DNA of 58,912 nucleotides from an uncultured Myxococcales bacterium (GTDB taxonomy: Bacteria > Myxococcota > UBA727 > VGSZ01). The notes below the pieces were generated by a model. The model made no database searches and was not told where the DNA came from. It saw nothing but the letters and a program-made list of their open reading frames with translations. This document shows positions 12,537 to 49,834 of the stretch, piece after piece. The translations under genes and the position numbers were made by a program. Position 1 is the stretch's first letter. Each line of letters begins with the position of its first letter. The stretch lies in the NCBI GenBank assembly GCA_964580865.1, contig CAZONM010000002.1:1-58912 (forward strand), in the 5' to 3' direction.

Positions 12537-14282
12537 TCAGCGGGGTGGCGCGCGCAGCACGGTCACCGACCACGGCGAAAGCGTCACCCGGAACGCGTTC
12601 TGCGCCACGGCGTCGACGGCCGCGGCGGCAGCGATCGTGGGGCCGTCGCCGTCGAGCACGAAGCGCGCGAGCTGCGCGGTGGCGGGCGCGGCCAGCGTCA
12701 GGGTGGCGTCGATGGCGTCGTCGGACTTGTTGAGCACGACCACCACCAGCGGCCCATCGGAGGCGTACACCGTCACGCGCTCGACGTCGGTGGTGCTGGC
12801 CGCCACCGACGTGGCGCCGAACGCCGCGCCGCCGCCGTCGACGTTGGTGAACGTGCGCAGGCCGGCGCGCGCGTACGGCTCGTCGCCGGCGAGCGGGTAG
12901 TACGTGGCCGCAACCACGCCCATACGCCCAAACACGCCGAGCACGTCGGCGACGGCGATGGCCCCGGAGATGTGCGAGCCGCCCCCGTAGTTCCACTCGG
13001 TGAACGACAGGCCCGTGCCCGGGTAGTGCGCGTCGATGTGCGCGAACAGCGTGGGCAGGAGCGCCACGGCGCCGCCGAGCACGTCGTGGGCGATCCAGCT
13101 GTCCTCGACGTACGTGGGATCCCACAGCGAGCGCGGCGCCTGCACGCGCTCGTCGGCGGCGGTGTCGTCCTGAGCGTCGCTCACGCGCACGCCGTCGCCT
13201 CGCGCCTCGGGGTACCAGTGCAGGTCGAGCACGTCGACCAGGCGGCGCCCGTGGGTCTGCTCGGCGTCGGCGAGGGCGTCGAGGAACCAGGGGATGAACT
13301 CGCCGTGCGCGCCCGCGTCGGGCGCGTTCTGCAGCGTGGTGTAGCCGTTGTAGCCGTAGCTGACGAAGCCGAGCACCGTGACGTCGTCGTCGACATCCTT
13401 GACGGCGCCCGCGAACGCCACCGTGCGATCGCGCAGTTCGACGTAGCTCACCGGCTCGGGGTGGATGCGCGGGTGCGTCTCCGACCAAAGATCGGGCTCG
13501 TTGTCGAGGTCGACGAGCAGCGGCACCGTCGGCCAGTGGGCGCGCACGTAGGCGAGGGCCTCGTCTTGATAGACGGCGCCGTCGCCCTCGTCCGGCGGGT
13601 CGACGAAGGCCGCGCCCTTGGCGGCGTGGTTCGCGACGAAGCGCGTCTGCAAGTAGCTCGAGCCCGAGTTGGCGACGTCGCCCACGCAGGCCGGCGGACC
13701 CTGGCCTCCGTCGCCGAGGTCGTCGTGGTCGGCGGCGACGTAGTCGACCATGGGCAGCGTCACCAGCGCCGCCGTGCCGCGCGCCTCGGCGTCGTCGAGG
13801 AGATCGACGAAGGCGTTGGCCGGGGGCGCGCTCGGCCCGCCCAGCATGGCGTCGTTCTGGTTGCACCAGTCGGTGCCCGCGTTGCTCGCGTTGTTCTCCC
13901 AGTTGTAGGCCGTCAGGCGGTTGCCGCCGCTGCGCACCACCGATGGCCGGTCTTGCGCGGCGTGTTCGCCGCCGTTCCACCCGTAGATCAGCGGGGAGAT
14001 GGGCCGACGGCCGGTGTCGACGCGCACCTGCAGCACGACGTCCGCGGCACCGGGATCGCCGGGCTCGACGATGGGGTCGCCCTCGCCTTCACCTTCACCT
14101 TCACCTTCACCTTCACCTTCACCTTCACCTTCACCTTCACCCTCACCTTCACCTTCACCTTCACCTTCACCTTCGCCCTCGCCCTCGCCCTCGCCCTCAC
14201 CGGGCACGGACGGCGGGCAGGCCGCGAGCACGGCGGCGGTGAACGGCAACGACGCGAGCGGCAGGAAGCGGCGCATGGCCAA
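12537..14282 (-). CDS. Lipoprotein glycoside hydrolase family 44 (endoglucanase/xyloglucanase-like) with a (GE)20 linker
   Basis: Lipobox VLAAC; GH44 motifs SGGNRLTAYNWENNASNAG, LDNEPDLW, DLHWYPE and FTEWNYGG. Confidence 0.85.
   Translation of the reverse strand: MAMRRFLPLASLPFTAAVLAACPPSVPGEGEGEGEGEGEGEGEGEGEGEGEGEGEGEGEGEGEGEGEGDPIVEPGDPGAADVVLQVRVDTGRRPISPLIYGWNGGEHAAQDRPSVVRSGGNRLTAYNWENNASNAGTDWCNQNDAMLGGPSAPPANAFVDLLDDAEARGTAALVTLPMVDYVAADHDDLGDGGQGPPACVGDVANSGSSYLQTRFVANHAAKGAAFVDPPDEGDGAVYQDEALAYVRAHWPTVPLLVDLDNEPDLWSETHPRIHPEPVSYVELRDRTVAFAGAVKDVDDDVTVLGFVSYGYNGYTTLQNAPDAGAHGEFIPWFLDALADAEQTHGRRLVDVLDLHWYPEARGDGVRVSDAQDDTAADERVQAPRSLWDPTYVEDSWIAHDVLGGAVALLPTLFAHIDAHYPGTGLSFTEWNYGGGSHISGAIAVADVLGVFGRMGVVAATYYPLAGDEPYARAGLRTFTNVDGGGAAFGATSVAASTTDVERVTVYASDGPLVVVVLNKSDDAIDATLTLAAPATAQLARFVLDGDGPTIAAAAAVDAVAQNAFRVTLSPWSVTVLRAPPR
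14082..14201 (-). repeat. In-frame 6-bp tandem repeat encoding (Gly-Glu)20
   Basis: The minus strand reads GGCGAG blocks followed by a long GGTGAA run; 120 nt. Confidence 0.97.
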
Positions 14283-37848: not shown

Positions 37849-39450
37849 ATGCCTGCGCGTGTCGCTCCGCCACGCCCTCGCGTCGTCATGACGGTGGCGC
37901 TCGTCCTCGCCGTCTCGTGCGCGCCCGACGACGCCACGCCCGCGCCCGCGGCGCTCGAGCCCCTGCCTCCGCTCGCGCATGCTGCCACCACGCGCGTGCG
38001 CACCCTCGTGCCGGTGCACGACGCCATGCCGGGCAACCCGACGAACCCGGGGCGACCGGAGAACCTCCAGGGGTACCTCGAGCTGGGCCTCGGCGACGTC
38101 ACCGAGGGGCCGCCCGACGACGTGGTGGTGCACGCCCTCGGCACCGTGGCGGGCGCGAGCGCGCCGCTCGACCCAAGCGCCCTGCCGGCCCCCGGGCCCA
38201 ATGCGCGGCGCCTGGCGCGCATCGTCCATCTCGCCGACCTGCAGCTGATGGACGACGAGAGCCCCACACGCGCGGCCGCCTTCGACACCCAGGCGGTGAC
38301 CGCCGCGCTGCGGCCGCAAGATCCCGTCCTCTGCCGCATGCTCAATGCCGCCGTGCGCACCATCAACGCGCTGCACGCGGAGGACCCCATCGACCTGGTG
38401 GTGCTCGGCGGCGACAACGCCGACTCCGCGCAGAACAACGAGGTGCGCTGGGTGCTCGACATCCTCGGTGGCAGCAGCCGCGTCCACTGCGACTCCGGCG
38501 ACGACAACGACCTCGACGCCGACGGCGACGACGGCAAGGACCCGTTCGCCGCCGCCGGGCTCGACGTGCCGTGGCGCTGGGTCAGCGGCAACCACGACGT
38601 GCTGGTGCAGGGCAACTTCGCCGTCGACGACGCGCAGGCCGCCGCCGCGCTCGGCGGCGAGGCAACCATGGGCACGCGCATCTATCAGGGCGAGGGCTTC
38701 GGCAGCATCGCCGACGGTGACGTCGCCATCCCCGACGAGGCGCGCCGCCTGCTGCAGGGCGCCGCCCTCGTCGACCTCGTGGGCGCGGACGACGACGGCC
38801 ACGGGCTCGCGCCCGACGCGCCCATGCCCCCGGGCGCCGTGCGCCCCACCGGCAAGGCGTTCGCCGCCTTCGACCTGCCGGGCACGCGGCTCACCGCGGT
38901 GGTGCTCGACACCTCGCACGCGCGCGGCGGCGCCAGCGGTGTCCTGCAAGCGTCGCACATCGACGCGTTCGTGCGCCCGGTCCTCGACGACGCCGTGGCG
39001 CGGGGGCGCCTCGTCCTCTTGGCGTCGCACCACGCGGCCGACTCGCTCACCACGGATGGCGGGGTGTTTGGCGCCAGCGAGCCCGATGCGCTGTCGAGCG
39101 ACGACTGGCGCGCGTTCCTGAGCGCGTACCCGAACGTGCTGTTCTCGTTGGTGGCGCACTCGCACCGTCACCGCGTGCGCGTACAGCAGACGCCGGGCCA
39201 CGCGTTCTTCGAGATCATGACCAGCGCGCTCGCCGACTGGCCGCACCAGTTCCGGCTCATCGAGCTCTACGACGACGACAACGGCACGCTGCGGCTGGAG
39301 GCCACACCCGTGGACTTCGCCGTCGACGACGACGCGCCAAGCGCGCTCGGCCGCGCGCTTGGGCTCATCGATCGGCTCACGGGGTGGAGCAGCGACGGCA
39401 GCGGCGCGAGCGAGGACCGCGCCATGTCGCTGGTGATCGCGACGCCGTAG
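37849..39450 (+). CDS. Lipoprotein calcineurin-like metallophosphoesterase
   Basis: Lipobox LAVSC; HLADLQ..D, GGDNAD, GNHD, SHH and AHSH motifs. Alternative ATG at 37888. Confidence 0.8.
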   Translation: MPARVAPPRPRVVMTVALVLAVSCAPDDATPAPAALEPLPPLAHAATTRVRTLVPVHDAMPGNPTNPGRPENLQGYLELGLGDVTEGPPDDVVVHALGTVAGASAPLDPSALPAPGPNARRLARIVHLADLQLMDDESPTRAAAFDTQAVTAALRPQDPVLCRMLNAAVRTINALHAEDPIDLVVLGGDNADSAQNNEVRWVLDILGGSSRVHCDSGDDNDLDADGDDGKDPFAAAGLDVPWRWVSGNHDVLVQGNFAVDDAQAAAALGGEATMGTRIYQGEGFGSIADGDVAIPDEARRLLQGAALVDLVGADDDGHGLAPDAPMPPGAVRPTGKAFAAFDLPGTRLTAVVLDTSHARGGASGVLQASHIDAFVRPVLDDAVARGRLVLLASHHAADSLTTDGGVFGASEPDALSSDDWRAFLSAYPNVLFSLVAHSHRHRVRVQQTPGHAFFEIMTSALADWPHQFRLIELYDDDNGTLRLEATPVDFAVDDDAPSALGRALGLIDRLTGWSSDGSGASEDRAMSLVIATP

Positions 39451-39456
39451 CGCGCG

Positions 39457-40005
39457 TCAGCGCTTCGTGAACGAGCAAGGCCCGATGCGCTCGCAGTCCG
39501 CCTGGATGGCGCGCCAGCCGTCGGCCCCGATGGCCTGCAGCGCCATGGGGTAGAGGATCTCGTTCTCTTTGTGGATGTGCGAGCGCAGCACCGGCACGAT
39601 GAAGTCGGCCACCTGGCACAGCCGATCGACGAACGCCTCGTCCGCCGTGGCGTCGGTGCTCACGTGGTCCTTGAGCGCACGCTTGGCCAGGCGCAGCTCC
39701 TCGTGATCGAGGCGCATCATGTGCGGCGGCCCCTCGATGCCCACCTCCTCCATGCGCGGGAACAAGGCCTGCTCCTCGCGCTGGTGGTGCGGCTCGGCGT
39801 CGAGCAGGCTCGACGCGAGCTTCACGAGCTCTTGACGTACGGCGCCATTGGGCTCGAGGCCCGCGGCGCTTTTGCGCGCCTCCACCGCGATGGCGTCGAG
39901 CCGGTCGAGAAAGCCGAGCAGCGTGTCGTGCTCCTCCATCCACACCCGCACCGGGTGGTTCGGAGGAAGCTCGCTCGGGTTGCTCTTGCCCATGGAGGGG
40001 AACAT
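39457..40005 (-). CDS. Hemerythrin/HHE cation-binding domain protein
   Basis: AGGAG RBS; EEH, HHQREEQALFP, DHEE and HIHKENEILYP metal-ligand pattern. Confidence 0.88.
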   Translation of the reverse strand: MFPSMGKSNPSELPPNHPVRVWMEEHDTLLGFLDRLDAIAVEARKSAAGLEPNGAVRQELVKLASSLLDAEPHHQREEQALFPRMEEVGIEGPPHMMRLDHEELRLAKRALKDHVSTDATADEAFVDRLCQVADFIVPVLRSHIHKENEILYPMALQAIGADGWRAIQADCERIGPCSFTKR

Positions 40006-40048
40006 GGTGGTCTCCTGACGATGTCGTTCGCAGCCGGCCCGCTCGGTA

Positions 40049-41224
40049 TCAGTACGCGCGCTCGCCGGTCAACGCCTCACCGATGACGAGCGCGTGCACG
40101 TCGTCGGTCCCCTCGTAGGTGAACGTCGACTCCAGGTTCATCGCATGCCGCATGACGTGGTGCTCGCCCGTGATGCCGTTGGCGCCGAGGATGTTCCTGG
40201 CCGTGCGCGCCGCGTCGAGCGCGATCTTGCAGTTGTTGCGCTTGAGCAGGCTCACCTGCGGCGGCGCGAGCTTGCCCTCGTCCTTGAGGCGGCCATAGTG
40301 CACCGCGAGCAGGCTGCCCTTGGTGATCTCGTTCGCCATGTCGGCGAGCTTCACCTGCACGAGCTGCTTTCTCGCGATGGGGCCGCCGAGCTGCTTGCGC
40401 TCGCAGGCATACTCGACCGCGGTCTCGAGACACGCGCGCGCGGCGCCGAGCACGCCGAAGGCCACGCCGTAGCGCGCGCTCGTGAGGCACGAGAGCGGGC
40501 CGCGCATGCCGTGCACGTTCGGCAGGCGGTTCTTGTCGGGCACACGCACGTCCATCATCGTCAGCCCGCCGGTGTAGCTCGCGCGCAGCGAGAGCTTGTG
40601 CGGGATGTCGGTGGCCGAGAAGCCCTTCATGCCCTTCTCGAGGATGAAGCCCGTGACGTCCTTCGACTCCGACGAGGTCTGTGCCCACACCACCGCGACG
40701 TCGGCGATCTGGGCGTTGGTGATCCACATCTTCTCGCCGTTCAGCACCCACGAGTCGCCGTCTTTCACGGCGCGCGTGGTCATCTGCCCGGGGTTACTGC
40801 CCGCGTTTGGCTCGGTGAGGCCGAAGCAGCCGATGCACTTGCCCGCCGCCATGCGCGGCAGATAGTTGTTCTTCTGCTCCTCGGAACCGAAGGCGTGGAT
40901 GGCGTACATCGCCAGGCTGGTCTGCACGCTGATGAAGCTGCGCAGGCCCGAGTCGCAGGCCTCGAGCTCGTGGCACGCCAGGCCGTAGCCCACCGACGAG
41001 ATGCCGGCGCAGCCGTAGCCCTCGAGGTTGGCGCCGAGCAGTCCGAGGTCGGCCAGCTCACCGATCAGCTCCTTCGGAAAGGTGTGCTTCTCGAAGTCGT
41101 CGACGATGCGCGGCATGCAGCGCGTGCGAACGAAGCGCTTGACGTTGCGCTGGATGGTCTTCTCGTCCTCGGTCAGCAGCGATTGCCAACCGATCAGCTC
41201 GTCGAGATCAAGCCGCGTGCCCAT
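40049..41224 (-). CDS. gcdH: Glutaryl-CoA dehydrogenase (probably decarboxylating type)
   Basis: DSGLRS..SVQ, GCFGLTEP, KMWITN, KLSLRAS.TG, R.QLGGP, LGANGI and TYEGT (catalytic Glu). Confidence 0.88.
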   Translation of the reverse strand: MGTRLDLDELIGWQSLLTEDEKTIQRNVKRFVRTRCMPRIVDDFEKHTFPKELIGELADLGLLGANLEGYGCAGISSVGYGLACHELEACDSGLRSFISVQTSLAMYAIHAFGSEEQKNNYLPRMAAGKCIGCFGLTEPNAGSNPGQMTTRAVKDGDSWVLNGEKMWITNAQIADVAVVWAQTSSESKDVTGFILEKGMKGFSATDIPHKLSLRASYTGGLTMMDVRVPDKNRLPNVHGMRGPLSCLTSARYGVAFGVLGAARACLETAVEYACERKQLGGPIARKQLVQVKLADMANEITKGSLLAVHYGRLKDEGKLAPPQVSLLKRNNCKIALDAARTARNILGANGITGEHHVMRHAMNLESTFTYEGTDDVHALVIGEALTGERAY

Positions 41225-42119
41225 GGAGTCCTCCAGAGATCGTGGTGGCCGCGTCGCCGCGGCGATCGAGCTGATGACGGCGATAGGCGCCGAGCAGGGC
41301 GGCGCCCAACGCGCCTGCGTAGATGCTGTCGGCGTTCGCCACCACCTTGAGCGGCGCGCCCTTGTCGGTGGCGAGCGACTCACGCAAGGCGGTCAGCATG
41401 CCCTCGTCGAGCGCCATGCCGCCCGACACGAACACGGTGTGGTCCGCCTTGATCGCGCGCAGGAGCTTCGACAGGCGCCCGGCGATCGACACGTGGATGC
41501 CCTTCAGGATGTCCTGCGTGGTCACGCCGCGGCTCACCATGTTGATGACGTCGGTCTCGGCCAGCACCGCGCAGATGCCGCTCACCTGCTCGGGCGCCGT
41601 GGCCTTGAGCGAGAGCCCGCCCACGTCTTCCAGCGGCACGCCCAGGTAGCGCGCGATGTTCTCGACGAACTGCCCGGTCCCGCTGGCGCATTGCGAGGTC
41701 ATGCGGTGGTTGAGCACCTTGCTGCGGTCGTCGATCTTGATGGCGCGGGCATGCAAGGCGCCGATGTCGAGCACGGCGCGCGCGTCGTGCTCCAGGAAGA
41801 GCGCCCCCCGCGCGTGCGTGGTCATCGAGTAGAAGTGGCCGGTGGCGAATTTCTCTGCCGCCTCGCCGTCCCCCGTCGACGCCACGTACACGAGCTTGTC
41901 GGGCTTGATGCCCGCGCTCTTGCACGCATCGGTGAACACGCGCTCGGCGAGCTCATAGACGTTGCGGCGCCGGATGCGCTCACACACGCGCGTCACGATC
42001 TCGCCGTGCTCGCCGGCCTTGCTCTTGGTGATCACGACCTTGACGGCGCCGGCGCCGATGTCGATGCCCGCCGAGTGAACCCATGGGGCGTCGTTCCCGC
42101 GTTGATCTTGCATGGTCAT
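41208..42119 (-). CDS. bcrD: Class I benzoyl-CoA reductase subunit D (ASKHA ATPase)
   Basis: GIDIG, STGDGE, TTHARGA, DIGALH, MTSQCASGTGQF, SGICAVLAETDVINM. Confidence 0.93.
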   Translation of the reverse strand: MTMQDQRGNDAPWVHSAGIDIGAGAVKVVITKSKAGEHGEIVTRVCERIRRRNVYELAERVFTDACKSAGIKPDKLVYVASTGDGEAAEKFATGHFYSMTTHARGALFLEHDARAVLDIGALHARAIKIDDRSKVLNHRMTSQCASGTGQFVENIARYLGVPLEDVGGLSLKATAPEQVSGICAVLAETDVINMVSRGVTTQDILKGIHVSIAGRLSKLLRAIKADHTVFVSGGMALDEGMLTALRESLATDKGAPLKVVANADSIYAGALGAALLGAYRRHQLDRRGDAATTISGGLHGHAA

Positions 42120-42137
42120 GGCGATTCCTCTCTTCTT

Positions 42138-43538
42138 TCAGCCGCAGCTCGCGCAGGCGTCGTCGGGTTGGGCGTAGTCCTTCATCGCCTTCTTGTCGGG
42201 CCGCTTGACGACCAGCAGGTTGGCCTTGCCGGCCCGCAGGTCGTCGAGCGCGAACAAGGCTGCGCCGAGCGCGCCCATGAAGATCGAGTCGGGGTGGACG
42301 TTGAGCGTGATGTCGTTGCCGTAGTTCTCATCGACCAGCTCGCGCAGCACCTTCGTGGCCATGTCGTTCTTGCACACACCGCCGGTGAAGGTGAGCTCGC
42401 TCTTCACGCCGCCCGAGCGCGCCAACAGGCTCATGGCGCGCAGCATGATGGCCTTATGCAGGCCCGCCAAGATGTCCTCGCGCTCCTCACCGAGCGACAG
42501 GCGCTCGCGCAGCTCGGCGCCCGCGAACACCGTGCACGTCGAGTTGATGCGCACGCTCTTGCACGACTTGAGCGCGAGCGGCCCGAGCTCGTGCAGACCG
42601 AGGTTCAGCTCGTCGGCGATGTAGCCGAGGTAGCGACCGCAGCCGGCGGCACAGCGATCGTTCATCTGAAACGTCGTCACGACACCCTTGTCGTCGACCT
42701 GGATGGCCTTGGTGTCTTGCCCGCCGATGTCGAGCACGGTGCGCGTACCGGGGAAGTACCGGTGCGCGCCGCGGCCGTGACACAGGATCTCGGAGCGCAC
42801 CGCGGCCTTGGGGAACGGCAGCGTCTGCCGCCCGTAGCCCGTGCCCGCGAACGCGATCTCGTCGATGGGCTCCGTGCCCACCGAGTCGACGATGTCGAAG
42901 AAGCGCTTCTTGGCGCCCTCGGGCAGGACGCCCGCGATGCGCCGCGCGGCGCGACCGAGCGTGGCCGCGAAGTCGAGCTCGCGCAGCTCGGTCTCGACGT
43001 CGAGGATGGCGCGATCGAACGGCCAGGTCAGCTCCTCGAAGCGCAGGCCGCGCTCGGCCGCGAGCTTCTCGGCCGCGTGCATGAAGGCCGCGCCCGCGAT
43101 GTCGCGGAAGAAGTCGCTCTTGCGCCCATCGCCGCCCAAGAACAGCGCCGGCGCGTCGCTCTGCATGCGGTCGAAGATGCCCGCGAGCGCGTCCTTCACC
43201 TGCGAGGTCCCGCGCGTGCCCGCCGCGGCCACCACCTCGGTGACGCGCTGGCGCAGCGCGGCGAGCTCGTCGAGGTAGAGCTCCAGGCGGAAGGCCGCGA
43301 GCAACTTGTCACCGAGCGCGCGGATGTCGCTCGCGCCGTCGCCCGTGAGGCCGTCGAGCTTGCGCGCGAGCAGGTTGAAGCGCGCCGAGGTCACCGCCTC
43401 GTCGCGCGCCACGGCGCTCGCCACCTCGTAATTCGAACGGCTGTTGGTGATGCCCTTGCCCACGATCTGGCCGTCCTCGTCGATGAGGATGGCCTTGGTG
43501 GTGGTGGAGCCGAGATCGACGCCGACACAGACTCTCAT
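42138..43538 (-). CDS. bcrA: Class I benzoyl-CoA reductase subunit A (ASKHA ATPase)
   Basis: GVDLGSTTTKA, GITNSRSNY, GTGYGR, SEILCHG.GAH, DIGGQDTK, MNDRCAAGCG, NSTCTVFA. Confidence 0.94.
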   Translation of the reverse strand: MRVCVGVDLGSTTTKAILIDEDGQIVGKGITNSRSNYEVASAVARDEAVTSARFNLLARKLDGLTGDGASDIRALGDKLLAAFRLELYLDELAALRQRVTEVVAAAGTRGTSQVKDALAGIFDRMQSDAPALFLGGDGRKSDFFRDIAGAAFMHAAEKLAAERGLRFEELTWPFDRAILDVETELRELDFAATLGRAARRIAGVLPEGAKKRFFDIVDSVGTEPIDEIAFAGTGYGRQTLPFPKAAVRSEILCHGRGAHRYFPGTRTVLDIGGQDTKAIQVDDKGVVTTFQMNDRCAAGCGRYLGYIADELNLGLHELGPLALKSCKSVRINSTCTVFAGAELRERLSLGEEREDILAGLHKAIMLRAMSLLARSGGVKSELTFTGGVCKNDMATKVLRELVDENYGNDITLNVHPDSIFMGALGAALFALDDLRAGKANLLVVKRPDKKAMKDYAQPDDACASCG

Positions 43539-44914
43539 GCGTTGCTCCCAATCACGACGGGTGCGGGACCCGACGCGGCGATCTTTCCGTTGCGACGCGC
43601 CTCGAGCATCTGCAGGTAGCTCTGCAGGCGGTTCTCGATGTTGGCCTTGCCGAAGTAGCGCGGATCGACGAGGTCACTCTCGACGAACGCGCCGGGCACG
43701 CCGGTGCGCTTCTCGAGCTCGCGCAGGATCATGAGCTGCCCGGCCGAGAACGAGTTGCAGCTCTTCACCGAGTTGATGAGGAAGCCGTCGGCGGAGTAGC
43801 TCTTGATGTACTTCTCGAGCAGGTCGATGCGGCTCGGCAGCGAGCGGTTCGTGTAGCAGCCGAGGCAGTAGTCGGCGAGCGTGCCGAGCGGGTCCTGCGG
43901 ATCGTGACGGAAGCCCTGATCGTACAGGCCGCCGACGCGCGTGTACGTCGACGCCACCGCGATGGCGCCTTCGTTCGAGAACATGTTCCAGAACTCGTTG
44001 AAGTGGGTCCAGCTCGGCGGACCCTCCACCACCAGGCGGTACTTCTGGTTGTTCATGACGCCGGCGGGCGTCATGGGCCCCTCACCGGCCTTGATGCGCT
44101 CGTTGACCTCGGCGAGCAGCTCCTCGTAGTAGGCCACGGCGTCTTCGCTGCCGCGGAAAGCCGAGAAGATGGGCCCGATGTAATAGACGCCACCGAAGTA
44201 GCCATCGATGGGCGACGGCTTGTTCCGCGCCGACTCCCACACCTTGACCAGCGCGTCCTCGGCGCGGCGCGAGCGCGCCAGCTGCTCCGACAGCTTGTCG
44301 AGGCTGAGCTTCATCCCCGTGATCTGCTCCATCTGCGGGATGACGTCGCTCTTGAGCTGATCGACGACGTACTGCCGCATCTCGGGCGTGATGTTGCCGT
44401 CGGCCTGATAGGGCACGTGCAGCATCACCACGGGGCAGTTGTATTCGGCCTTGAGCAGCTCGAACCACTTCATGAAGGTGAAGCAGCCCGTGTACGAGAG
44501 CAGCAAGAGGTCGGGGCTCGGCAGCGTCTTGCCCGTTGGGCCCACGTTGCCGGTGCGCAGCATGCCGATGTCGCACTTGACGTAGCTGCACACGTCCTCA
44601 CTGTGCCCGCCGCGCTCGGCCTCGCTGATGTACGCGCCGCTCTTGCCGCGCATGCCCGACTGCAGGGCGTTGATCTCGGGCAGCACCGGCAGCATCTCGA
44701 ACGCGCCCATGAGCTCGGTGAGGTTGCCAGGCACGAAGGTGTAGGCCACCTTCTTGCCGTCGGCCTTCGCCGTCGAGAGACGGTCGAAGTGCTCGGCGAT
44801 CATGCGCTTCTGCCGCTGTTGGCTTGCGTCTTTGGTGGTCGGCACGGTGACGGCCGAGCCCTCCGACGGAGGCGCGCCCTTGGAACCCTTGGAACCGATG
44901 TTGACGAGGCTCAT
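43535..44914 (-). CDS. bcrB: Class I benzoyl-CoA reductase subunit B
   Basis: FVPGNL.EL, PEINALQ, DVCSYVK.D, YTGCFTFMKWFE, SCNSFSAGQ, ESDLVDPRYF; ATGA overlap with bcrC. Confidence 0.93.
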   Translation of the reverse strand: MSLVNIGSKGSKGAPPSEGSAVTVPTTKDASQQRQKRMIAEHFDRLSTAKADGKKVAYTFVPGNLTELMGAFEMLPVLPEINALQSGMRGKSGAYISEAERGGHSEDVCSYVKCDIGMLRTGNVGPTGKTLPSPDLLLLSYTGCFTFMKWFELLKAEYNCPVVMLHVPYQADGNITPEMRQYVVDQLKSDVIPQMEQITGMKLSLDKLSEQLARSRRAEDALVKVWESARNKPSPIDGYFGGVYYIGPIFSAFRGSEDAVAYYEELLAEVNERIKAGEGPMTPAGVMNNQKYRLVVEGPPSWTHFNEFWNMFSNEGAIAVASTYTRVGGLYDQGFRHDPQDPLGTLADYCLGCYTNRSLPSRIDLLEKYIKSYSADGFLINSVKSCNSFSAGQLMILRELEKRTGVPGAFVESDLVDPRYFGKANIENRLQSYLQMLEARRNGKIAASGPAPVVIGSNA

Positions 44915-46104
44915 GCCGCTGACTCCCACAGGCGCACGGCGTCGGAGAAGGCGCCAGCCTGTTCACGAATGACCTGGAACTGCCCGGTGTTCTCGGCGTA
45001 CTTGAACGAGGTGAAGGGGATGCCCGCGCCCTCGCACGCGGCCTCGAGCATCGGCTGATCGAGCAACGCGGGGTCGCAGAACGACGCGGCCGCGAAGATG
45101 ACGCCGTCGGCCTTGGCGCGCTTGACCTGCTCGAGCAGCGCCGCGCCCTTCTGGCCCTCGCCGATGTAGCGCGACGCGGTCGCCTTGCCCTTGTGCAGGA
45201 AGGCGTTGACGATGGCGTCGAGCGGATCGCCGACGTCGTCGATCATGCCCTCCATGTAGTCGAGCCCGAGCTGCAGATCGTCGGAGATGATGTCGCAGCC
45301 GGCGCGCTCGAGGCTCTTGATGAGGCCGAAGGGCGGCTGCTCGCAGAAGCTGCCCACCAGCACCACGCGCACGTTGTCCTTGGGCTGGCCCGTGCGCTTG
45401 CCCGCCGCCGCCACGTACTCCTCGACGAGCGAGGCGTGCTCACGCGCGCTGACAGCGCCGCCGGCGCGGGTCACCAGGTAGGCCTCGGAGGCCGGCACGC
45501 GCCACGAGGCGTCGCGGCGCAGGGCCGCGAGCTTGTCGAGCGCCGCGCGGCGCACGTTCTCGTCCTTGATGGCCGCGCGCAGCCCCTCGTCGGTGAGGGC
45601 CTTGGCGCCGCGCTCGTGGAGCTCGCGCGCTAGGCGCTTGAGCTCGAGCTTGTAGAAGCGGCCGCCCACCTCGGGGCGGAAGTTCTGCGGCAGATCGAGG
45701 TACGCCGCCCACTTCTGCGGGAACAGCATCTGCCACATGCCGCTCAGGTTGCGGATGACGTCGCAGATGGCGGGAAAGATCATGCCGTCGAGCGAGTCGA
45801 GCATGCCGGTGAGGCCGAGCTCGATGGTGCTGCGCGGGATATGGCAGATGTAGCTCTGGAAGTACGAGTCGCCGCGGATGATGTCCTTGTCCCCGGCGCC
45901 GTAGATGGCCACCGGGAGCACGCCGATGGCCTCGAGCAGCACGCGCGGCGTGTAGATGGGCATGTGGCCGATGGCGAGCGCGCCCTTGTTCTTGTCCTTC
46001 CACGCCTTGACCGGCGCGGTGCCGTAGTCGTCGACGAGCGCCTGCGCGCGCTTGAGGACCGCCGCGGCGGGGTCGTTCGTGGAAGCGGTGGGTTGAGCGG
46101 TCAT
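44911..46104 (-). CDS. bcrC: Class I benzoyl-CoA reductase subunit C
   Basis: GDSYFQSYICHIPRSTIELG, CDVIRNLSG, GSFCEQPP, SFCDPALLD, FKYAENTGQFQVIREQAG.F. Confidence 0.93.
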   Translation of the reverse strand: MTAQPTASTNDPAAAVLKRAQALVDDYGTAPVKAWKDKNKGALAIGHMPIYTPRVLLEAIGVLPVAIYGAGDKDIIRGDSYFQSYICHIPRSTIELGLTGMLDSLDGMIFPAICDVIRNLSGMWQMLFPQKWAAYLDLPQNFRPEVGGRFYKLELKRLARELHERGAKALTDEGLRAAIKDENVRRAALDKLAALRRDASWRVPASEAYLVTRAGGAVSAREHASLVEEYVAAAGKRTGQPKDNVRVVLVGSFCEQPPFGLIKSLERAGCDIISDDLQLGLDYMEGMIDDVGDPLDAIVNAFLHKGKATASRYIGEGQKGAALLEQVKRAKADGVIFAAASFCDPALLDQPMLEAACEGAGIPFTSFKYAENTGQFQVIREQAGAFSDAVRLWESAA

Positions 46105-46835
46105 GCGCTATCTCCCGGTGACTTGACGAGCTGCAACAGAGGAAGGGGCTTCTTGCCGGCCAAGCGCTCGACGGTCTCGGTGACGTCGGCGTTGGCGTCG
46201 TGCATGGGGCATGCGGGCCGCAGGCCGCACAACAGCAAGCGGTGGAGCGTGTGGGCGAGCACCTGTGGTGTGCCGTGCACGGCCGGGCGGTACCAGCCGT
46301 AGGTCCAGTTGATCATCCCGAACAGGGCGTAGGTCTGGCGTTCGAGCTCGAGCGGATCGACCTTGGCCTTCTTGGCGGCGCCGTTCTTCTTGGGCGTGCA
46401 CGACGCCTCGTCGAGCACGCCGGCGACGACGTCGCGACCGATGGCGTAGTAGCGCTCCTTGACGGCGCGCACCACCGCGCGCTGCTTGGGCGGCAGCGCA
46501 TGCGCCTCTTGGATCAGCACCTGCATGATCGCGTGATTGCTCGCCACGTACTGCACGTGCTGCTGGATGAACGCGTAGAGCTTGTCGACGGGCGAGCTGC
46601 CCTGCGCCACCGCCGCCGTCGCCGACTGCACCAGCGTCTCGAAGGCGCGCTGCTGCAGATCGGCGAGCAGATCCTCCTTCGACGCGTAGTAGTTGTAGAA
46701 GCCCGCCGGTGTCTTGCCGAGCGCCTTGGCCAGATCGCGCATCGACATGCCGTGGAAGCCGTGCTTCGCCAGCACGCCCGCCGCGGCCTCGAGGATCTCG
46801 AGGCGTCCTTCCGCTTTGCGGGAGGGACGCGCCAT
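46101..46835 (-). CDS. TetR-family regulator (KstR2/PaaR-like C-terminal domain)
   Basis: HTH ILEAAA...GFHGMSMRDLA..LG...FYNYYASKEDLL; C-terminal FGMINWTYGWY.P; overlaps both neighbours. Confidence 0.92.
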   Translation of the reverse strand: MARPSRKAEGRLEILEAAAGVLAKHGFHGMSMRDLAKALGKTPAGFYNYYASKEDLLADLQQRAFETLVQSATAAVAQGSSPVDKLYAFIQQHVQYVASNHAIMQVLIQEAHALPPKQRAVVRAVKERYYAIGRDVVAGVLDEASCTPKKNGAAKKAKVDPLELERQTYALFGMINWTYGWYRPAVHGTPQVLAHTLHRLLLCGLRPACPMHDANADVTETVERLAGKKPLPLLQLVKSPGDSA

Positions 46836-47605
46836 CAGCGGTCCTCCCACGCGGGTCTGCGCCGCTCGAGGAATGACGCGATGCCCTCGTTGGCGTCGTG
46901 GCTCGGCAGCAGCTCCTCGACGTACTGCCGCTCGGCGACGTCGAGGGCGCCCTCGAGCGCGTGCAGCAAGCCGCCCGCGCGCCGCGCCACCTTGGTGGCC
47001 TGACGGATCGCGAAGGCCGACAGCGGCGCCAGGTGCTCGCGGTACCAAGCGAACACCTCGGCCTCGTCGACGACGATCTTGCTGACGAAGCCGCTGCGCG
47101 CCGCCTCGTCGGCGTTGATGGTGGCCCCGGTGATGACCAGCCGCTCGCCGAGCGCGTGCCCCAGGCGCAGCGGGCCGATGGCGGCGAGCACCGGCGGGAA
47201 CACGCCGAGCTTCACCTCGGGGCAGCCGAACTTCGCGTCCGACGTGCAGAACACCAGGTGGCAGGCGCACACGACCTCGAAGGCGCCGCCCAGGCACTGC
47301 CCGCGCACCAGCGCGGCCACCGGCACCGGGTGCGCGGCCAGCGCGCGGATGAAGCGATGGAAGGCCGCCAGCATGCCGGGCGCGGCCTCCTTCTTGTGCT
47401 CTTCCACCGAGGCGCCGAACGAGAAGTGCGCGCCATCGCCCTCGAGCACCACCAGCTTGAGCTTGGGGTCGTCCTTGTGCTCGTCGAGCGCGGCGGTGAT
47501 GGCGGACATCATCGCCATCGAGAAGATGTTGCCCTTGCCGCCCGTGAGCAGCACGCGCTGCACGCGTCCGTCCTCGAGCATCTCGGTGCGCACCAGTCGC
47601 GTCAT
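46835..47605 (-). CDS. dch: Cyclohexa-1,5-diene-1-carbonyl-CoA hydratase (crotonase fold)
   Basis: KGNIF, HFSFGASVEEH, CLGGAFE, FGCPEVKLGVFPP, DANEGI..F; context within the bcr cluster. Confidence 0.85.
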   Translation of the reverse strand: MTRLVRTEMLEDGRVQRVLLTGGKGNIFSMAMMSAITAALDEHKDDPKLKLVVLEGDGAHFSFGASVEEHKKEAAPGMLAAFHRFIRALAAHPVPVAALVRGQCLGGAFEVVCACHLVFCTSDAKFGCPEVKLGVFPPVLAAIGPLRLGHALGERLVITGATINADEAARSGFVSKIVVDEAEVFAWYREHLAPLSAFAIRQATKVARRAGGLLHALEGALDVAERQYVEELLPSHDANEGIASFLERRRPAWEDR

Positions 47606-47615
47606 CGCCGCCCCC

Positions 47616-48743
47616 TCACTCGCTCATCAGCTTCTTGAATGCCGGCCGCGCCGAGGCGGGCAGCACGCTCTCCACCAGCTCTTGGTTGAAGCGCGCGCCC
47701 TCGGCCACGCGGCGGCGCAGCTGCGCGAAGTCGATCTCGCGCTCCTTGCCCTCGCCGAAGTGGAAGGCGGGGAAGCCGGCCATCGCCTCGGTGTTCATGT
47801 TGAGCGACAGCCAGCTCCGGCTGGTCTCGCAGTTCTTCTGCCAGGCCTCGAGCTTCTTCTTCCGGAAGCTCTCGAGCGTCTTCCGCGTGCAGTCGGGGAA
47901 GGTGTAGAGGAGCTTGGTGACGAGGGCGTTCACCGCCTTGTCGAGGAGCGTGAGGTCAATCTCGCACTCGCTCGCCGCGGCCTTCGCCTTCTCCTTGGCG
48001 TCGCCGTCCTTGAAGTCGCCGTACACCACGCGACCGTACTCATCGAGAAACCGCTCGGTGACGACGTACGGGTTGGCGATGAAGGTGCCGTCCTTCTTCT
48101 TGTGCACGGGCACGATCTCGTTGACGATGCCGAAGTGCATGGCCTTGTGCGCCGACCATGGCTCGCACAAGACCAGCGACTCGGGCGCGCGCCCCACGCC
48201 CACGTACAAGTCGAGGAAGTCGGTGCTGCCGCCGTCGGGCGCCGAGCCGTGCTTGGGCCCCGCCTGGCCGTAGCGCGCGTGATCACCGGAGACGGTGAAG
48301 TCACACGCCATGCCGATTTCCTGGCCGCCGCCGATGCGCATGCCGTTGGCGCGGCACACGACGGGCTTGTCGCACAGCAGGATCGTCGTCACCATGTCGT
48401 TGAACAGGCGCATGTACTGCGCGTACTCGAGGGGACGACCGGCGTAGTACGTGGTGTACTCCTCGGTGTTGCCGCCGGTGCAGAAGGCCCGGTCGCCCAC
48501 CGCCGTGAACACCACGGCCACCGCGCGGCGATCGCAGCTCGCACGACGGAACGCCAGGATCACGTCCTTGACCGTATCCGTGGTGTAGCTGTTGAGCTGC
48601 TTTGGGTTGTTGAGCGAGATCCACACCTGATGCAGCCCGGCGACCTCATTGCCTGCGGTGTCGAGCACCGGCTTGGTCTCGTATTTGATGTGCGAGAAGA
48701 CGTAGTCGGCGACGAGCTCGTGGTTCCTGAGGGTGAGGGCCAT
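47616..48743 (-). CDS. oah: 6-oxocyclohex-1-ene-1-carbonyl-CoA hydrolase (ring cleaving)
   Basis: AAGGAG RBS; LNNPKQLNSYTT, FCTGGNT.EY..YYAGRP.EY, GMRIGGGQEIGMACD, QAGPKHGSAPDGGSTDFL, NMNTEA. Confidence 0.93.
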   Translation of the reverse strand: MALTLRNHELVADYVFSHIKYETKPVLDTAGNEVAGLHQVWISLNNPKQLNSYTTDTVKDVILAFRRASCDRRAVAVVFTAVGDRAFCTGGNTEEYTTYYAGRPLEYAQYMRLFNDMVTTILLCDKPVVCRANGMRIGGGQEIGMACDFTVSGDHARYGQAGPKHGSAPDGGSTDFLDLYVGVGRAPESLVLCEPWSAHKAMHFGIVNEIVPVHKKKDGTFIANPYVVTERFLDEYGRVVYGDFKDGDAKEKAKAAASECEIDLTLLDKAVNALVTKLLYTFPDCTRKTLESFRKKKLEAWQKNCETSRSWLSLNMNTEAMAGFPAFHFGEGKEREIDFAQLRRRVAEGARFNQELVESVLPASARPAFKKLMSE

Positions 48744-48772
48744 GGTTCGCTCCTTTGGATCGAAGGGAGTGC

Positions 48773-49834
48773 TCAGAGGCGGGGATCGAGGGTGACGCGG
48801 CGCGTGAGCGTGTGCGCGCGCATGGCGTCGAGCACGGCGTTGACCTCGCGCATCGGGCGCACCTCGCAGAAGGGCGCGAGCGCGATCTTGCCGGCAGCGA
48901 TGAGGCGCAAGACCTCCGGGTATTGCTCGGGCGGGCAGCCCCACGTGCCGTGCACCGTGGCGTCGAACGCCATCAGGTTCGACAGGCGCACGGTGACGCG
49001 TTCGGGCGTGAAGCCCACCTGCACCATGGTCGAGCAGCGGCCGAGCAGCGAGAACGCGATCTCCTGCGTGGCCGGCAGGCCCGCGCACTCGAAGACCCGG
49101 GTCTTCCACGTGTCGATGCCGAAGCCCTTGGCCAGCTTGCTCGCCTCGTCGCGCACGGCCTTCACGTCCTTGCCGCGCGTGTTGATGGTGGCGGCAGCGC
49201 CGTGCTTGGCCATGAGCGACAGCCGCTCGTCGGCGACGTCAAGGGCGATGACCTTGGCGCCGAGCGCCGCGCACGCCTGGATGACGAAGCCGCCCACGCC
49301 GCCCGCGCCCACCACGTAGCACAGGTCGCCCTCGCTCACGCCGGCGCGGCGCGTCGCCTGCCACGCGGTCGACACGGCGTCGGCGACCACCGAGTACATG
49401 CGCACGTCGACGCCGCCGGTGTCGGCCAGCACCTGGAGCGGGCGCGCGGGCACGAGCAGGTGGGTGGCGAAGGCGCCGTGGATGTCGTTGCCCGGCATCT
49501 TCTGTTTGGGGCACGCGTTGCCGCGGCCCGCCTTGCACAGCGCGCACTCGCCGCAGGGCAGCACCGCGGGCACCACCACGGTCTTACCCACGAGGTGCAG
49601 GAAGGCGTCGCCCGCCTCCACCACCTTGCCGACGGCCTCGTGGCCGAGCACCAGCGGCAGCGGGTGGTTCGTGCGCACGCCACCGTCGGCGAAGCCGAGG
49701 TCGGTGTGGCACAGGCCGTTGCCCCACACCTCCACCACGGCCTCCCCCGGGCCCGGCGCCGGGATGGGCAGCTCGCGCTCCACCAGCGGAGCCTTGGGCT
49801 CGACGAGAAACCAGGCCTTGGCGGTGATGGTCAT
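48773..49834 (-). CDS. had: 6-hydroxycyclohex-1-ene-1-carbonyl-CoA dehydrogenase (Zn-dependent MDR)
   Basis: GLCHTDL, LVLGHE, PCGECALCKAGRGNAC..QKMPGND..G.FATH, VVADAVST, RLSNLMAFDA...G.WGCPP. Confidence 0.9.
   Translation of the reverse strand: MTITAKAWFLVEPKAPLVERELPIPAPGPGEAVVEVWGNGLCHTDLGFADGGVRTNHPLPLVLGHEAVGKVVEAGDAFLHLVGKTVVVPAVLPCGECALCKAGRGNACPKQKMPGNDIHGAFATHLLVPARPLQVLADTGGVDVRMYSVVADAVSTAWQATRRAGVSEGDLCYVVGAGGVGGFVIQACAALGAKVIALDVADERLSLMAKHGAAATINTRGKDVKAVRDEASKLAKGFGIDTWKTRVFECAGLPATQEIAFSLLGRCSTMVQVGFTPERVTVRLSNLMAFDATVHGTWGCPPEQYPEVLRLIAAGKIALAPFCEVRPMREVNAVLDAMRAHTLTRRVTLDPRL

What the first reader, a model, noticed from the sequence alone, without database searches (positions are those of the whole stretch)
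39457..40005. Hemerythrin-domain gene closes the bcr operon where a ferredoxin is usually found
Seen: own RBS 43 nt after gcdH, same strand, with a full His/Glu ligand set. Knowledge: class I BCR Fe-S clusters are very O2-labile, and hemerythrin-like proteins act in O2/NO binding or Fe-S repair (RIC/YtfE). Inference: a dedicated protection or repair factor that lets a facultative organism maintain BCR across oxic-anoxic shifts.
Basis: partly seen in the sequence, partly recalled or inferred. Interest (0 to 1): 0.62.

Follow-up and report, generated by a model that had tools for sequence, protein, structure and literature searches.

The report
Hemerythrin-type gene ending a benzoyl-CoA reductase operon
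A small di-iron (hemerythrin-type) protein gene really is the last gene of an operon for oxygen-free breakdown of aromatic rings, and similar genes turn up at the end of such operons in several bacterial phyla, so it is probably a helper that keeps the very oxygen-sensitive ring-reducing enzyme working, although this has not been tested.

Summary
Window 39457-40005 (minus strand) encodes a 182-aa HHE/hemerythrin-domain protein. It has an AGGAGA ribosome site, lies 43 nt after a canonical glutaryl-CoA dehydrogenase gene, and ends a had-oah-dch-tetR-bcrCBAD-gcdH operon. The next gene is convergent.

"In place of a ferredoxin" does not fit this lineage: 78 of 80 related clusters carry no ferredoxin gene.

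The functional link to benzoyl-CoA reductase (BCR) is supported by comparative genomics only:
- gcdH-hemerythrin adjacency is kept in about eight related Myxococcota contigs, down to 51% hemerythrin identity, while the downstream gene changes.
- HHE genes of at least four other subfamilies, one a true RIC/YtfE, lie within 3.5 kb after bcrD in 9 of 63 related clusters (11-fold enrichment).
- One of those subfamilies is BCR-linked in 14 of 36 loci, including MBR-type reductase operons of Gemmatimonadota and Chloroflexota, once with a 4-nt gene overlap.

The protein is not a RIC member. It belongs to the uncharacterised PF0695/3CAX-like clade and has an invariant C-terminal cysteine.

The most likely role is protection or repair of BCR's Fe-S clusters against O2, NO or peroxide. 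This is inferred, not shown. No paper in the searchable library describes the association. Interest is moderate.

The parts
39457..40005 (-). 182-aa HHE/hemerythrin-domain protein (P0001). It belongs to the PF0695/3CAX-like clade and has an invariant C-terminal Cys177 in the motif IGPCSF.
   Evidence: PF01814 E 4e-21. AlphaFold2 model pLDDT 94.4. Foldseek best match 3CAX, TM 0.83.
40011..40016 (-). Ribosome-binding site AGGAGA, 5 nt upstream of the ATG.
   Evidence: The site is invariant in window, L001 and L002, while the rest of the spacer diverges.
40006..40048 (-). 43-nt gcdH-hemerythrin spacer with no promoter-like or terminator-like site.
40049..41224 (-). gcdH, a canonical decarboxylating-type glutaryl-CoA dehydrogenase. 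Its start overlaps the end of bcrD.
   Evidence: PDB 3SF6 at 4e-137 and 1SIQ at 9e-130.
41208..42119 (-). bcrD, an ATPase subunit of the reductase.
   Evidence: TIGR02261 326 bits, cut-off 313.
42138..43538 (-). bcrA, an ATPase subunit of the reductase.
   Evidence: TIGR02259 527 bits, just under the cut-off of 578.
43535..44929 (-). bcrB, the active-site subunit.
   Evidence: (TIGR02260 681 bits, cut-off 487).
44911..46104 (-). bcrC.
   Evidence: TIGR02263 435 bits, cut-off 421.
46101..46832 (-). TetR-family regulator embedded in the operon. The start coordinate is approximate.
46835..47605 (-). dch, a dienoyl-CoA hydratase-like gene.
   Evidence: TIGR03189 221 bits, below the cut-off of 292.
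47616..48749 (-). oah, the ring-opening hydrolase. The start coordinate is approximate.
   Evidence: TIGR03200 519 bits, cut-off 464.
48773..49834 (-). had, 6-hydroxycyclohex-1-ene-1-carbonyl-CoA dehydrogenase. The start coordinate is approximate.
   Evidence: TIGR03201 386 bits, cut-off 339.
37849..39450 (+). Convergent neighbour, a TIGR03767/8-type metallophosphoesterase. It is not part of the operon and marks the operon's end.

Best explanation
The gene encodes a cytoplasmic, stand-alone di-iron HHE (hemerythrin-like) four-helix-bundle protein. It is most likely translated from the same mRNA as bcrCBAD-gcdH.

Its most likely role is as a non-essential maintenance factor for the class I benzoyl-CoA reductase. 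In that role it either intercepts O2, NO or H2O2, or re-supplies iron to damaged Fe-S clusters. The clusters most at risk are the active-site [4Fe-4S] cluster, in which one iron carries water rather than cysteine, and the ATPase-bridging cluster. Either activity would keep the enzyme functional in habitats that alternate between oxic, denitrifying and anoxic phases, such as activated sludge.

Shown: gene, fold, ligand motif, operon position, conservation of the linkage, and recurrent recruitment of other HHE subfamilies to BCR operons.

Inferred: iron binding, co-transcription, and the protective or repair activity and its target.
For: 1. **Domain, ligands and fold:**
2. **Operon position:** a 43-nt gap with a conserved RBS, no promoter or terminator signal, and a convergent downstream gene.
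3. **Conserved linkage:** gcdH-hemerythrin adjacency is kept in window, L001, L002, L168/169, L164/165, L166/167 and L170, with hemerythrin identity from 90% down to 51%. The downstream gene switches between a metallophosphoesterase, a GDPD gene and an unannotated 462-aa ORF. In the tree, the BCR-linked members are basal and the non-linked ones form a single derived clade.
4. **Other HHE subfamilies next to bcrD:** in 63 related bcr clusters with sequence after bcrD, 9 HHE ORFs lie within 3.5 kb after bcrD, 6 of them within 80 nt. Only 2 lie in the remaining 516 kb of flank, an 11-fold enrichment with binomial P = 4e-4. The ten ORFs scanned (eight of these nine plus the two flank hits) are confirmed as PF01814; the ninth (L152) is a borderline hit that was not scanned. 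They fall into at least four subfamilies, and one is a complete ScdA_N+HHE RIC.
5. **A second subfamily (G1) is often BCR-linked:** 14 of 36 assessable loci are BCR-linked. These include MBR-type reductase operons (MbdO E 1e-140) of Gemmatimonadales, Anaerolineae and Rhodospirillaceae. In L196 the gene overlaps had by 4 nt.
6. **Stress-regulon hint:** elsewhere the P0001 family sits beside Rrf2 regulators (7 loci), which is typical of NO and Fe-S stress regulons.
7. **A vulnerable cluster type in BCR:** class I BCR has an aqua-[4Fe-4S] active-site cluster on three Cys plus an [8Fe-9S] cluster (PMC11971306). From general knowledge, a cluster with one iron not held by Cys is the type RIC proteins repair in dehydratases.
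8. **Habitat:** the sequence is found in sludge and bioreactor metagenomes.
Against: - About 85% of related bcr clusters have no HHE gene nearby.
- A derived clade of the same Myxococcota family sits beside amidohydrolase or xseA/pirin genes instead.
- Most relatives in other phyla have unrelated contexts: a heavy-metal (HMA-domain) P-type ATPase, a cupin, and Fer4/NarJ genes.
- One adjacent subfamily (G2) is BCR-linked only in its 2 seed loci out of 80.
- The hemerythrin evolves 2.4-6 times faster than gcdH.
- The protein is not a RIC by domain content or score.
- No biochemical or transcript evidence exists. The enrichment test does not correct for shared ancestry.
Confidence: 0.45

Rival explanations
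1. The protein is a general stress or metal-homeostasis gene with no specific tie to BCR. Small HHE genes are common and mobile, and they simply accumulate at permissive operon ends.
For: - Family members in other phyla have many unrelated neighbours.
- A sister clade in Myxococcota sits by amidohydrolase or pirin genes.
- The G2 subfamily is BCR-linked in only 2 of 80 loci.
- The gene evolves fast.
- Most bcr clusters lack any HHE gene.
Against: - HHE genes are 11-fold enriched at the bcrD end compared with the other flanks.
- At least five independent arrangements or subfamilies occur there.
- G1 is BCR-linked in 39% of loci, across two reductase types and four phyla, with overlapping or nearly abutting start and stop codons.
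- The gcdH-hemerythrin junction is retained while the downstream gene changes.
Confidence: 0.27
2. The protein is an O2 or NO sensor or buffer rather than a repair factor. In this reading the di-iron site binds the gas and signals through a protein partner (for example the operon's TetR, or BCR itself), or it merely lowers local O2.
For: - The second-best fold match is the FBXL5 hemerythrin domain, an iron/oxygen sensor, at TM 0.6.
- The closest solved relative, PF0695, fuses this domain to a further C-terminal region (369 aa in all).
- The invariant C-terminal Cys and Trp could form a redox-sensitive interface.
Against: - The protein has no output domain.
- Nothing indicates an interaction with TetR.
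- Stoichiometric O2 binding by a minor protein cannot buffer much O2.
- A true RIC occupies the same position in L156.
Confidence: 0.2
3. The protein is an electron carrier that replaces the missing ferredoxin as donor to BCR.
For: - There is no ferredoxin gene in the window or in related clusters.
- The gene's position resembles that of fdx in the Thauera cluster (general knowledge).
Against: - BCR needs a donor near -500 mV, and benzoyl-CoA reduction has E0' = -622 mV (PMC11971306).
- Di-iron carboxylate/His centres have much higher potentials (general knowledge).
- Most related clusters have neither a ferredoxin nor an HHE gene, so the donor must be encoded elsewhere.
Confidence: 0.02

Closest known systems
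PF0695 of Pyrococcus furiosus (PDB 3CAX; DUF438/COG2461-type hemerythrin-like protein, function unknown)
   Same: It is the best sequence match (E 1e-7 over residues 12-175) and the best fold match (TM 0.83, rmsd 2.1 A). It shares the HHxxEE, MRxEH and HIxKEN motifs.
   Different: PF0695 is 369 aa and carries an additional C-terminal region. It has Asn where P0001 has the invariant His26. Its function is unknown, so the match says nothing about mechanism.
RIC / YtfE / ScdA / DnrN di-iron Fe-S cluster repair proteins
   Same: The HHE di-iron domain is shared, with aligned HxxxE, H and HxxxE motifs. The proposed role, maintaining labile [4Fe-4S] clusters under NO or oxidative stress, is also shared. 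A true RIC lies next to bcrD in L156.
   Different: P0001 has no ScdA_N domain. The NCBIfam scores are 22-26 bits against cut-offs of 205-300. The fold superposition is poor, TM about 0.36.
COG3945 HHE protein in aerobic box (benzoyl-CoA epoxidase) clusters of Rhodocyclales
   Same: It is a hemerythrin/HHE gene embedded in a benzoyl-CoA catabolic cluster. Its role is unclear, and an oxygen-store, scavenger or protective role has been suggested (PMC6449761).
   Different: It belongs to a different pathway (aerobic BoxABC) and different hosts. Its sequence relationship to P0001 was not tested here.
Thauera aromatica bcrCBAD-fdx cluster
   Same: It has the same reductase type and gene order, with the dch, had and oah partners.
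   Different: The Thauera cluster ends with a ferredoxin gene. This one ends with gcdH and an HHE gene, and carries a TetR gene inside the operon.

Membership tests
Pfam PF01814 Hemerythrin HHE cation-binding domain | Profile score above the gathering threshold over the whole domain. | tested here: met
   76.2 bits against a cut-off of 25.3, covering profile positions 1-127 of 127.
Pfam PF01814 Hemerythrin HHE cation-binding domain | Ligand motif H ... HxxxE ... H ... HxxxE. | tested here: met
   The motif is H26, H73xxxE77, H101, H143xxxE147. H26, H73, E77, H101 and H143 are invariant in 50 relatives and E147 is at least 90% conserved. The last five residues align with YtfE's HxxxE, H and HxxxE motifs.
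Pfam PF01814 Hemerythrin HHE cation-binding domain | Four-helix-bundle fold. | tested here: met
   AlphaFold2 model with pLDDT 94.4. Foldseek matches: 3CAX at TM 0.83 and the FBXL5 hemerythrin domain at TM 0.6.
Pfam PF01814 Hemerythrin HHE cation-binding domain | Binds a di-iron centre. | not testable with these tools
   This needs metal analysis and spectroscopy of the purified protein.
RIC / YtfE (TIGR03652, NF008221) | N-terminal ScdA_N (PF04405) domain. | tested here: not met
   One search finds only PF01814. In contrast, the L156 protein has both domains.
RIC / YtfE (TIGR03652, NF008221) | Equivalog model score above the cut-off. | tested here: not met
   26.3 bits against 254, and 21.8 bits against 204.7.
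RIC / YtfE (TIGR03652, NF008221) | Restores damaged [4Fe-4S] clusters. | not testable with these tools
   This needs a biochemical assay.
Classical O2-carrying (bacterio)hemerythrin | Ligand pattern H, HxxxE, HxxxH, HxxxxD. | tested here: not met
   By inspection, helix 3 reads H95xxxxxH101 and helix 4 reads H143xxxE147, with no HxxxxD. The pattern itself is recalled from general knowledge, and no dedicated model was available.
DUF438/COG2461 (PF0695-type) | N-terminal DUF438 domain (PF04282), as carried by some family members. | tested here: not met
   One search finds only PF01814 in a 182-aa protein. Some relatives carry PF04282.
DUF438/COG2461 (PF0695-type) | Hemerythrin-like module of the PF0695 type. 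| tested here: met
Class I benzoyl-CoA reductase operon, Bcr (Thauera) type | Four subunits, BcrC, B, A and D. | tested here: met
   B, C and D score above their equivalog cut-offs, and A scores 527 bits against 578.
Class I benzoyl-CoA reductase operon, Bcr (Thauera) type | Dch, Had and Oah partner genes. | tested here: met
   oah and had score above their cut-offs, and dch scores below its cut-off (221 against 292).
Class I benzoyl-CoA reductase operon, Bcr (Thauera) type | Cluster-encoded ferredoxin. | tested here: not met
   none in the window, and none in 78 of 80 related loci.

The most novel reading that the evidence does not exclude
HHE/hemerythrin-like di-iron proteins are a convergently recruited, dedicated maintenance factor for ATP-dependent (class I) aryl-CoA reductases of both the Bcr and MBR types. 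They would repair or shield the aqua-[4Fe-4S] active-site cluster. This would let ring dearomatisation persist at oxic-anoxic or denitrifying interfaces, in lineages usually regarded as aerobes (Myxococcota, Gemmatimonadota, Chloroflexota).
Probability: 0.25. Interest if true: 0.7.

Novelty: new variant of a known kind. Interest (0 to 1): 0.5.

Why it matters
Class I benzoyl-CoA reductases are among the most oxygen-labile enzymes known. Even so, they are typical of facultative anaerobes and, as these loci show, of uncultured Myxococcota, Gemmatimonadota and Chloroflexota from sludge and soil. How such organisms keep the enzyme alive through oxygen or NO pulses is an open practical question, both for bioremediation and for producing these enzymes recombinantly.

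A recurrent operon-encoded di-iron helper would be a concrete, testable answer. It would also give a first functional context to a widespread but uncharacterised hemerythrin-like clade (the PF0695/3CAX type).

If the link proves fortuitous, the gene is an ordinary accessory HHE protein.

Tried and rejected
- **Single-sequence AlphaFold2 model**: pLDDT 56, unusable. It was replaced by an alignment-based model.
- **Promoter and terminator scan of 39000-42500**: no informative sites.
- **Transcript evidence**:
  - One RNA-seq run (X15, contigs only) holds exact pieces of the hemerythrin gene (39460-39765) and of gcdH (40079-40315), at depth 3-5.
  - No contig crosses the junction, and DNA carry-over cannot be excluded.
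  - A junction-spanning contig exists only in a run of unknown type (X13).
  - Co-transcription therefore remains untested.
- **Universal partner gene of the P0001 family across phyla**: none was found, only lineage-specific neighbours.
- **Reverse test for HHE subfamily G2**: only the two seed loci are BCR-linked, so G2 is not a BCR-specific family.
- **Hemerythrin as a ferredoxin substitute:** rejected on redox grounds, and because related clusters lack both genes.
- **NCBIfam naming of the upstream gene as FadE, AcrC or a non-decarboxylating GDH**: rejected in favour of canonical GcdH.
- **Literature**: no paper links hemerythrin to BCR operons or describes DUF438-type hemerythrins.

Full report
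**1. What is there**

The window has about 71% G+C. On the minus strand it carries a compact cluster:
- had (about 48773-49834)
- oah (47616 to about 48749)
- dch (46835-47605)
- a TetR regulator (46101 to about 46832)
- bcrC (44911-46104), bcrB (43535-44929), bcrA (42138-43538), bcrD (41208-42119)
- an acyl-CoA dehydrogenase gene (40049-41224)
- the flagged ORF (39457-40005)

NCBIfam equivalog models place BcrB, BcrC, BcrD, Oah and Had above their curated cut-offs for the Thauera-type pathway. BcrA falls just below its cut-off.

NCBIfam could not name the dehydrogenase. It is nevertheless a canonical glutaryl-CoA dehydrogenase: the best PDB hit is 3SF6 at 4e-137 and human GCDH 1SIQ scores 9e-130, while the non-decarboxylating Desulfococcus enzyme 3MPI scores only 4e-50.

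The flagged ORF starts with ATG. It is preceded by AGGAGA with a 5-nt spacer and lies 43 nt after the gcdH stop. It ends 6 nt from the stop of a convergent metallophosphoesterase gene. It is thus the last gene of the operon. A consensus scan found no promoter or terminator signal in or around the spacer.

**2. What the protein is**

Pfam finds only PF01814 (Hemerythrin/HHE), full length, E 4e-21. The weak NCBIfam hits to YtfE, DnrN and RIC (22-26 bits against cut-offs of 205-300) cover only the C-terminal half, and there is no ScdA_N domain. It is therefore not a RIC family member.

A search of 5.8 billion proteins returned 58 relatives. In an alignment of 50 of them these residues are invariant: E25, H26, E71, H73, H74, R76, E77, E78, H101, H143, K146, W164, G175 and C177. 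Together they give the canonical pattern H...HxxxE...H...HxxxE. They also define a family-specific C-terminal motif, W-x10-IG(P/Y)C. In some members this motif extends into Cys-rich tails.

H73, E77, H101, H143 and E147 align with YtfE's HxxxE, H and HxxxE motifs.

The alignment-based AlphaFold2 model is confident (pLDDT 94.4). Its only strong structural match is the N-terminal module of P. furiosus PF0695 (3CAX, TM 0.83), a protein of unknown function. The FBXL5 hemerythrin domain follows at TM about 0.6.

The gene is under purifying selection, with dN/dS 0.13-0.28 against close relatives. It accumulates amino-acid changes 2.4-6 times faster than gcdH.

**3. Is the link to bcr more than chance?**

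*(a) Within the protein's own lineage.*
- Two Myxococcota MAGs (L001, L002; hemerythrin 90% and 81% identical) keep the whole cluster and the same downstream gene.
- More divergent members were traced through metagenome contigs. L164/165 (61%) and L166/167 (62%) show an upstream fragment, then gcdH, the hemerythrin gene and a convergent GDPD gene. In L164 the fragment is 88% identical to BcrD and GcdH is 92% identical.
- L168/169 (87%) look like the window.
- L170 (51%, sister to the whole clade) has the GcdH C-terminus 31 nt upstream and a different, unannotated 462-aa convergent neighbour.
- The gcdH-hemerythrin junction therefore persists while the downstream gene changes. This places the gene with the operon, not with the neighbouring region.
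- In the maximum-likelihood tree the BCR-linked members are basal. The members that sit beside amidohydrolase genes (L003, L005, L161, L163) or between xseA and pirin genes (L004, L158) form one derived, long-stemmed clade.

*(b) The converse test.*
- Eighty loci were retrieved with BcrB, from Myxococcota, Acidobacteriota, Planctomycetota and other phyla. They share the order oah-dch-(tetR)-bcrCBAD.
- HMM and jackhmmer searches of all six-frame ORFs were run on these loci, and Pfam confirmed the ten ORFs it was given. In the 63 loci with sequence after bcrD, 9 HHE ORFs (one of them, L152, a borderline hit not scanned by Pfam) lie within 3.5 kb downstream of bcrD.
- Six of the nine lie within 80 nt of bcrD: L095, L107, L120 and L114 on the same strand, L130 and L156 on the opposite strand.
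- Only 2 HHE ORFs lie in the other 516 kb of flanking DNA. That is an 11-fold enrichment, binomial P = 4e-4, not corrected for phylogeny.
- These ORFs fall into at least four subfamilies that are 25-35% identical to each other and to P0001. One of them (L156) is a complete ScdA_N+HHE RIC protein.

*(c) Reverse tests on two of those subfamilies.*
- G1 (L095, L107, L120): 52 full-length loci were found. Of the 36 with at least 5 kb of upstream sequence, 14 lie at the end of a BCR-type operon.
- These 14 include Bcr-type clusters of Myxococcota. They also include MBR-type clusters (MbdO E 1e-140) of Gemmatimonadales, Anaerolineae and a Rhodospirillaceae MAG.
- In L196 the hemerythrin start overlaps the had stop by 4 nt.
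- G2 (L114, L130, L150): only the 2 seed loci of 80 are BCR-linked. Not every adjacent HHE gene belongs to a BCR-specific family.

*(d) Caveats.* About 85% of related clusters have no HHE gene. Outside Myxococcota the P0001 family sits beside other genes: Rrf2 regulators (7 loci), heavy-metal (HMA-domain) P-type ATPases (8 loci), cupins, and Fer4/NarJ genes.

**4. Ferredoxin**

No ORF with a CxxCxxCxxxC motif exists in the window. Only 2 of the 80 related loci hold one, and in neither is it a small ferredoxin next to bcrD. In this cluster type the position after bcrD is a variable accessory slot. It holds:
- gcdH in 17 loci
- a BadL-like GNAT gene in 17 loci
- HHE genes
- 4-hydroxybenzoyl-CoA-reductase-like XDH-family genes
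- SDR genes

The hemerythrin therefore does not replace a ferredoxin. An electron-donor role is also implausible given the potentials involved (benzoyl-CoA reduction, E0' = -622 mV; PMC11971306).

**5. Expression**

The sequence occurs in many sludge and bioreactor metagenomes. One RNA-seq run holds exact contigs inside the hemerythrin gene and inside gcdH, at similar low depth, but none crosses the junction. DNA carry-over cannot be excluded. Co-transcription is therefore likely from the anatomy but not shown.

**6. Mechanism**

Class I BCR carries three kinds of cluster: an [8Fe-9S] double cubane, an active-site [4Fe-4S] cluster on three cysteines with a water-bound iron (PMC11971306), and a solvent-exposed cluster bridging the ATPase subunits (general knowledge).

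Clusters with an iron not ligated by cysteine are the ones that lose iron on oxidation or nitrosylation. They are the ones RIC/YtfE proteins are reported to restore in aconitase and fumarase (general knowledge).

Three points together make a BCR-maintenance role the best-supported reading, at about 0.45:
- HHE proteins are recruited repeatedly to BCR operons, including a true RIC.
- Relatives of P0001 neighbour Rrf2 regulators.
- The habitat cycles between oxic and denitrifying conditions.

This reading covers Fe-S repair or iron donation, and scavenging of O2, NO or peroxide. The rivals are a sensor or buffer role (0.2), a fortuitous general stress gene (0.27) and an electron carrier (0.02).

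**7. Novelty**

The searchable literature holds no report linking hemerythrin-like proteins to BCR operons. It also holds nothing on DUF438-type hemerythrins.

The nearest precedent is a remark that a COG3945 HHE gene of unclear role sits in aerobic box clusters of Rhodocyclales (PMC6449761).

Earlier AI notes from this scan independently mention hemerythrin genes next to BCR-type operons in Chloroflexota, Bacteroidota and other genomes. They agree with the result here, but they are leads and not evidence.

**8. Verdict**

This is a known protein fold in a new, recurrent operon context. Interest is moderate (0.5).

Noticed in passing
L079-L157, directly after bcrD (e.g. L079 about 13540-14019): A 160-180-aa GNAT acetyltransferase (PF00583) follows bcrD in 17 of 63 related clusters. 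This recalls BadL of Rhodopseudomonas palustris.
   Followed up: partly
L079 14023-17477; also L080, L095, L104, L105: 2Fe-2S, molybdopterin and FAD subunits of the xanthine-dehydrogenase family follow bcrD and the GNAT gene. They look like 4-hydroxybenzoyl-CoA reductase. This was recognised from sequence motifs and not scanned.
   Followed up: no
L084 8190-10334; also L086, L091, L129: A protein of about 715 aa with several CxxCH haem motifs and N-terminal hydrophobic stretches follows bcrD in Acidobacteriota clusters. It may be a multihaem cytochrome attached to a BCR operon.
   Followed up: no
L180 7187-7465 and 10 other MBR-type loci (L187, L189, L194-L198, L202, L203, L206, L211): A conserved small ORF of about 93 aa lies between the second ATPase subunit and had in MBR-type operons. 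It has CxxxxxxC...CxxC spacing and no Pfam hit.
   Followed up: no
window 39457-39500 (protein residues 164-182): The family has an invariant Trp164, Gly175 and Cys177 (motif IG[PY]C[CS]F). Some members extend this into CCxxCxC tails. This could be a second metal site or a thiol-redox site in an otherwise typical HHE protein.
   Followed up: partly
L022, L026, L038, L041, L053, L058, L060: In Marinimicrobia relatives an Rrf2-family regulator gene lies about 0.5 kb upstream of the P0001-type gene on the same strand. In Patescibacteria a heavy-metal (HMA-domain) P-type ATPase recurs nearby.
   Followed up: partly
L164 1-2140 compared with window 39457-42119: BcrD and GcdH are 88-92% identical between these two loci, but the adjacent hemerythrin is only 61% identical. 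Either it evolves much faster or the gene has been replaced within the same slot.
   Followed up: partly
L174, L177, L190, L199, L212, L219: G1-type hemerythrin genes of Rhodospirillales lie near heterotetrameric sarcosine oxidase genes (SoxA, SoxB, SoxD) instead of BCR genes.
   Followed up: no
L268 923-4953: In a Gemmatimonadales locus, two HGD-D-like genes plus one activase-like gene (25-28% identical to BcrB and BcrA) lie about 3 kb upstream of a G2-type hemerythrin. This is possibly a 2-hydroxyacyl-CoA-dehydratase-type enzyme.
   Followed up: no
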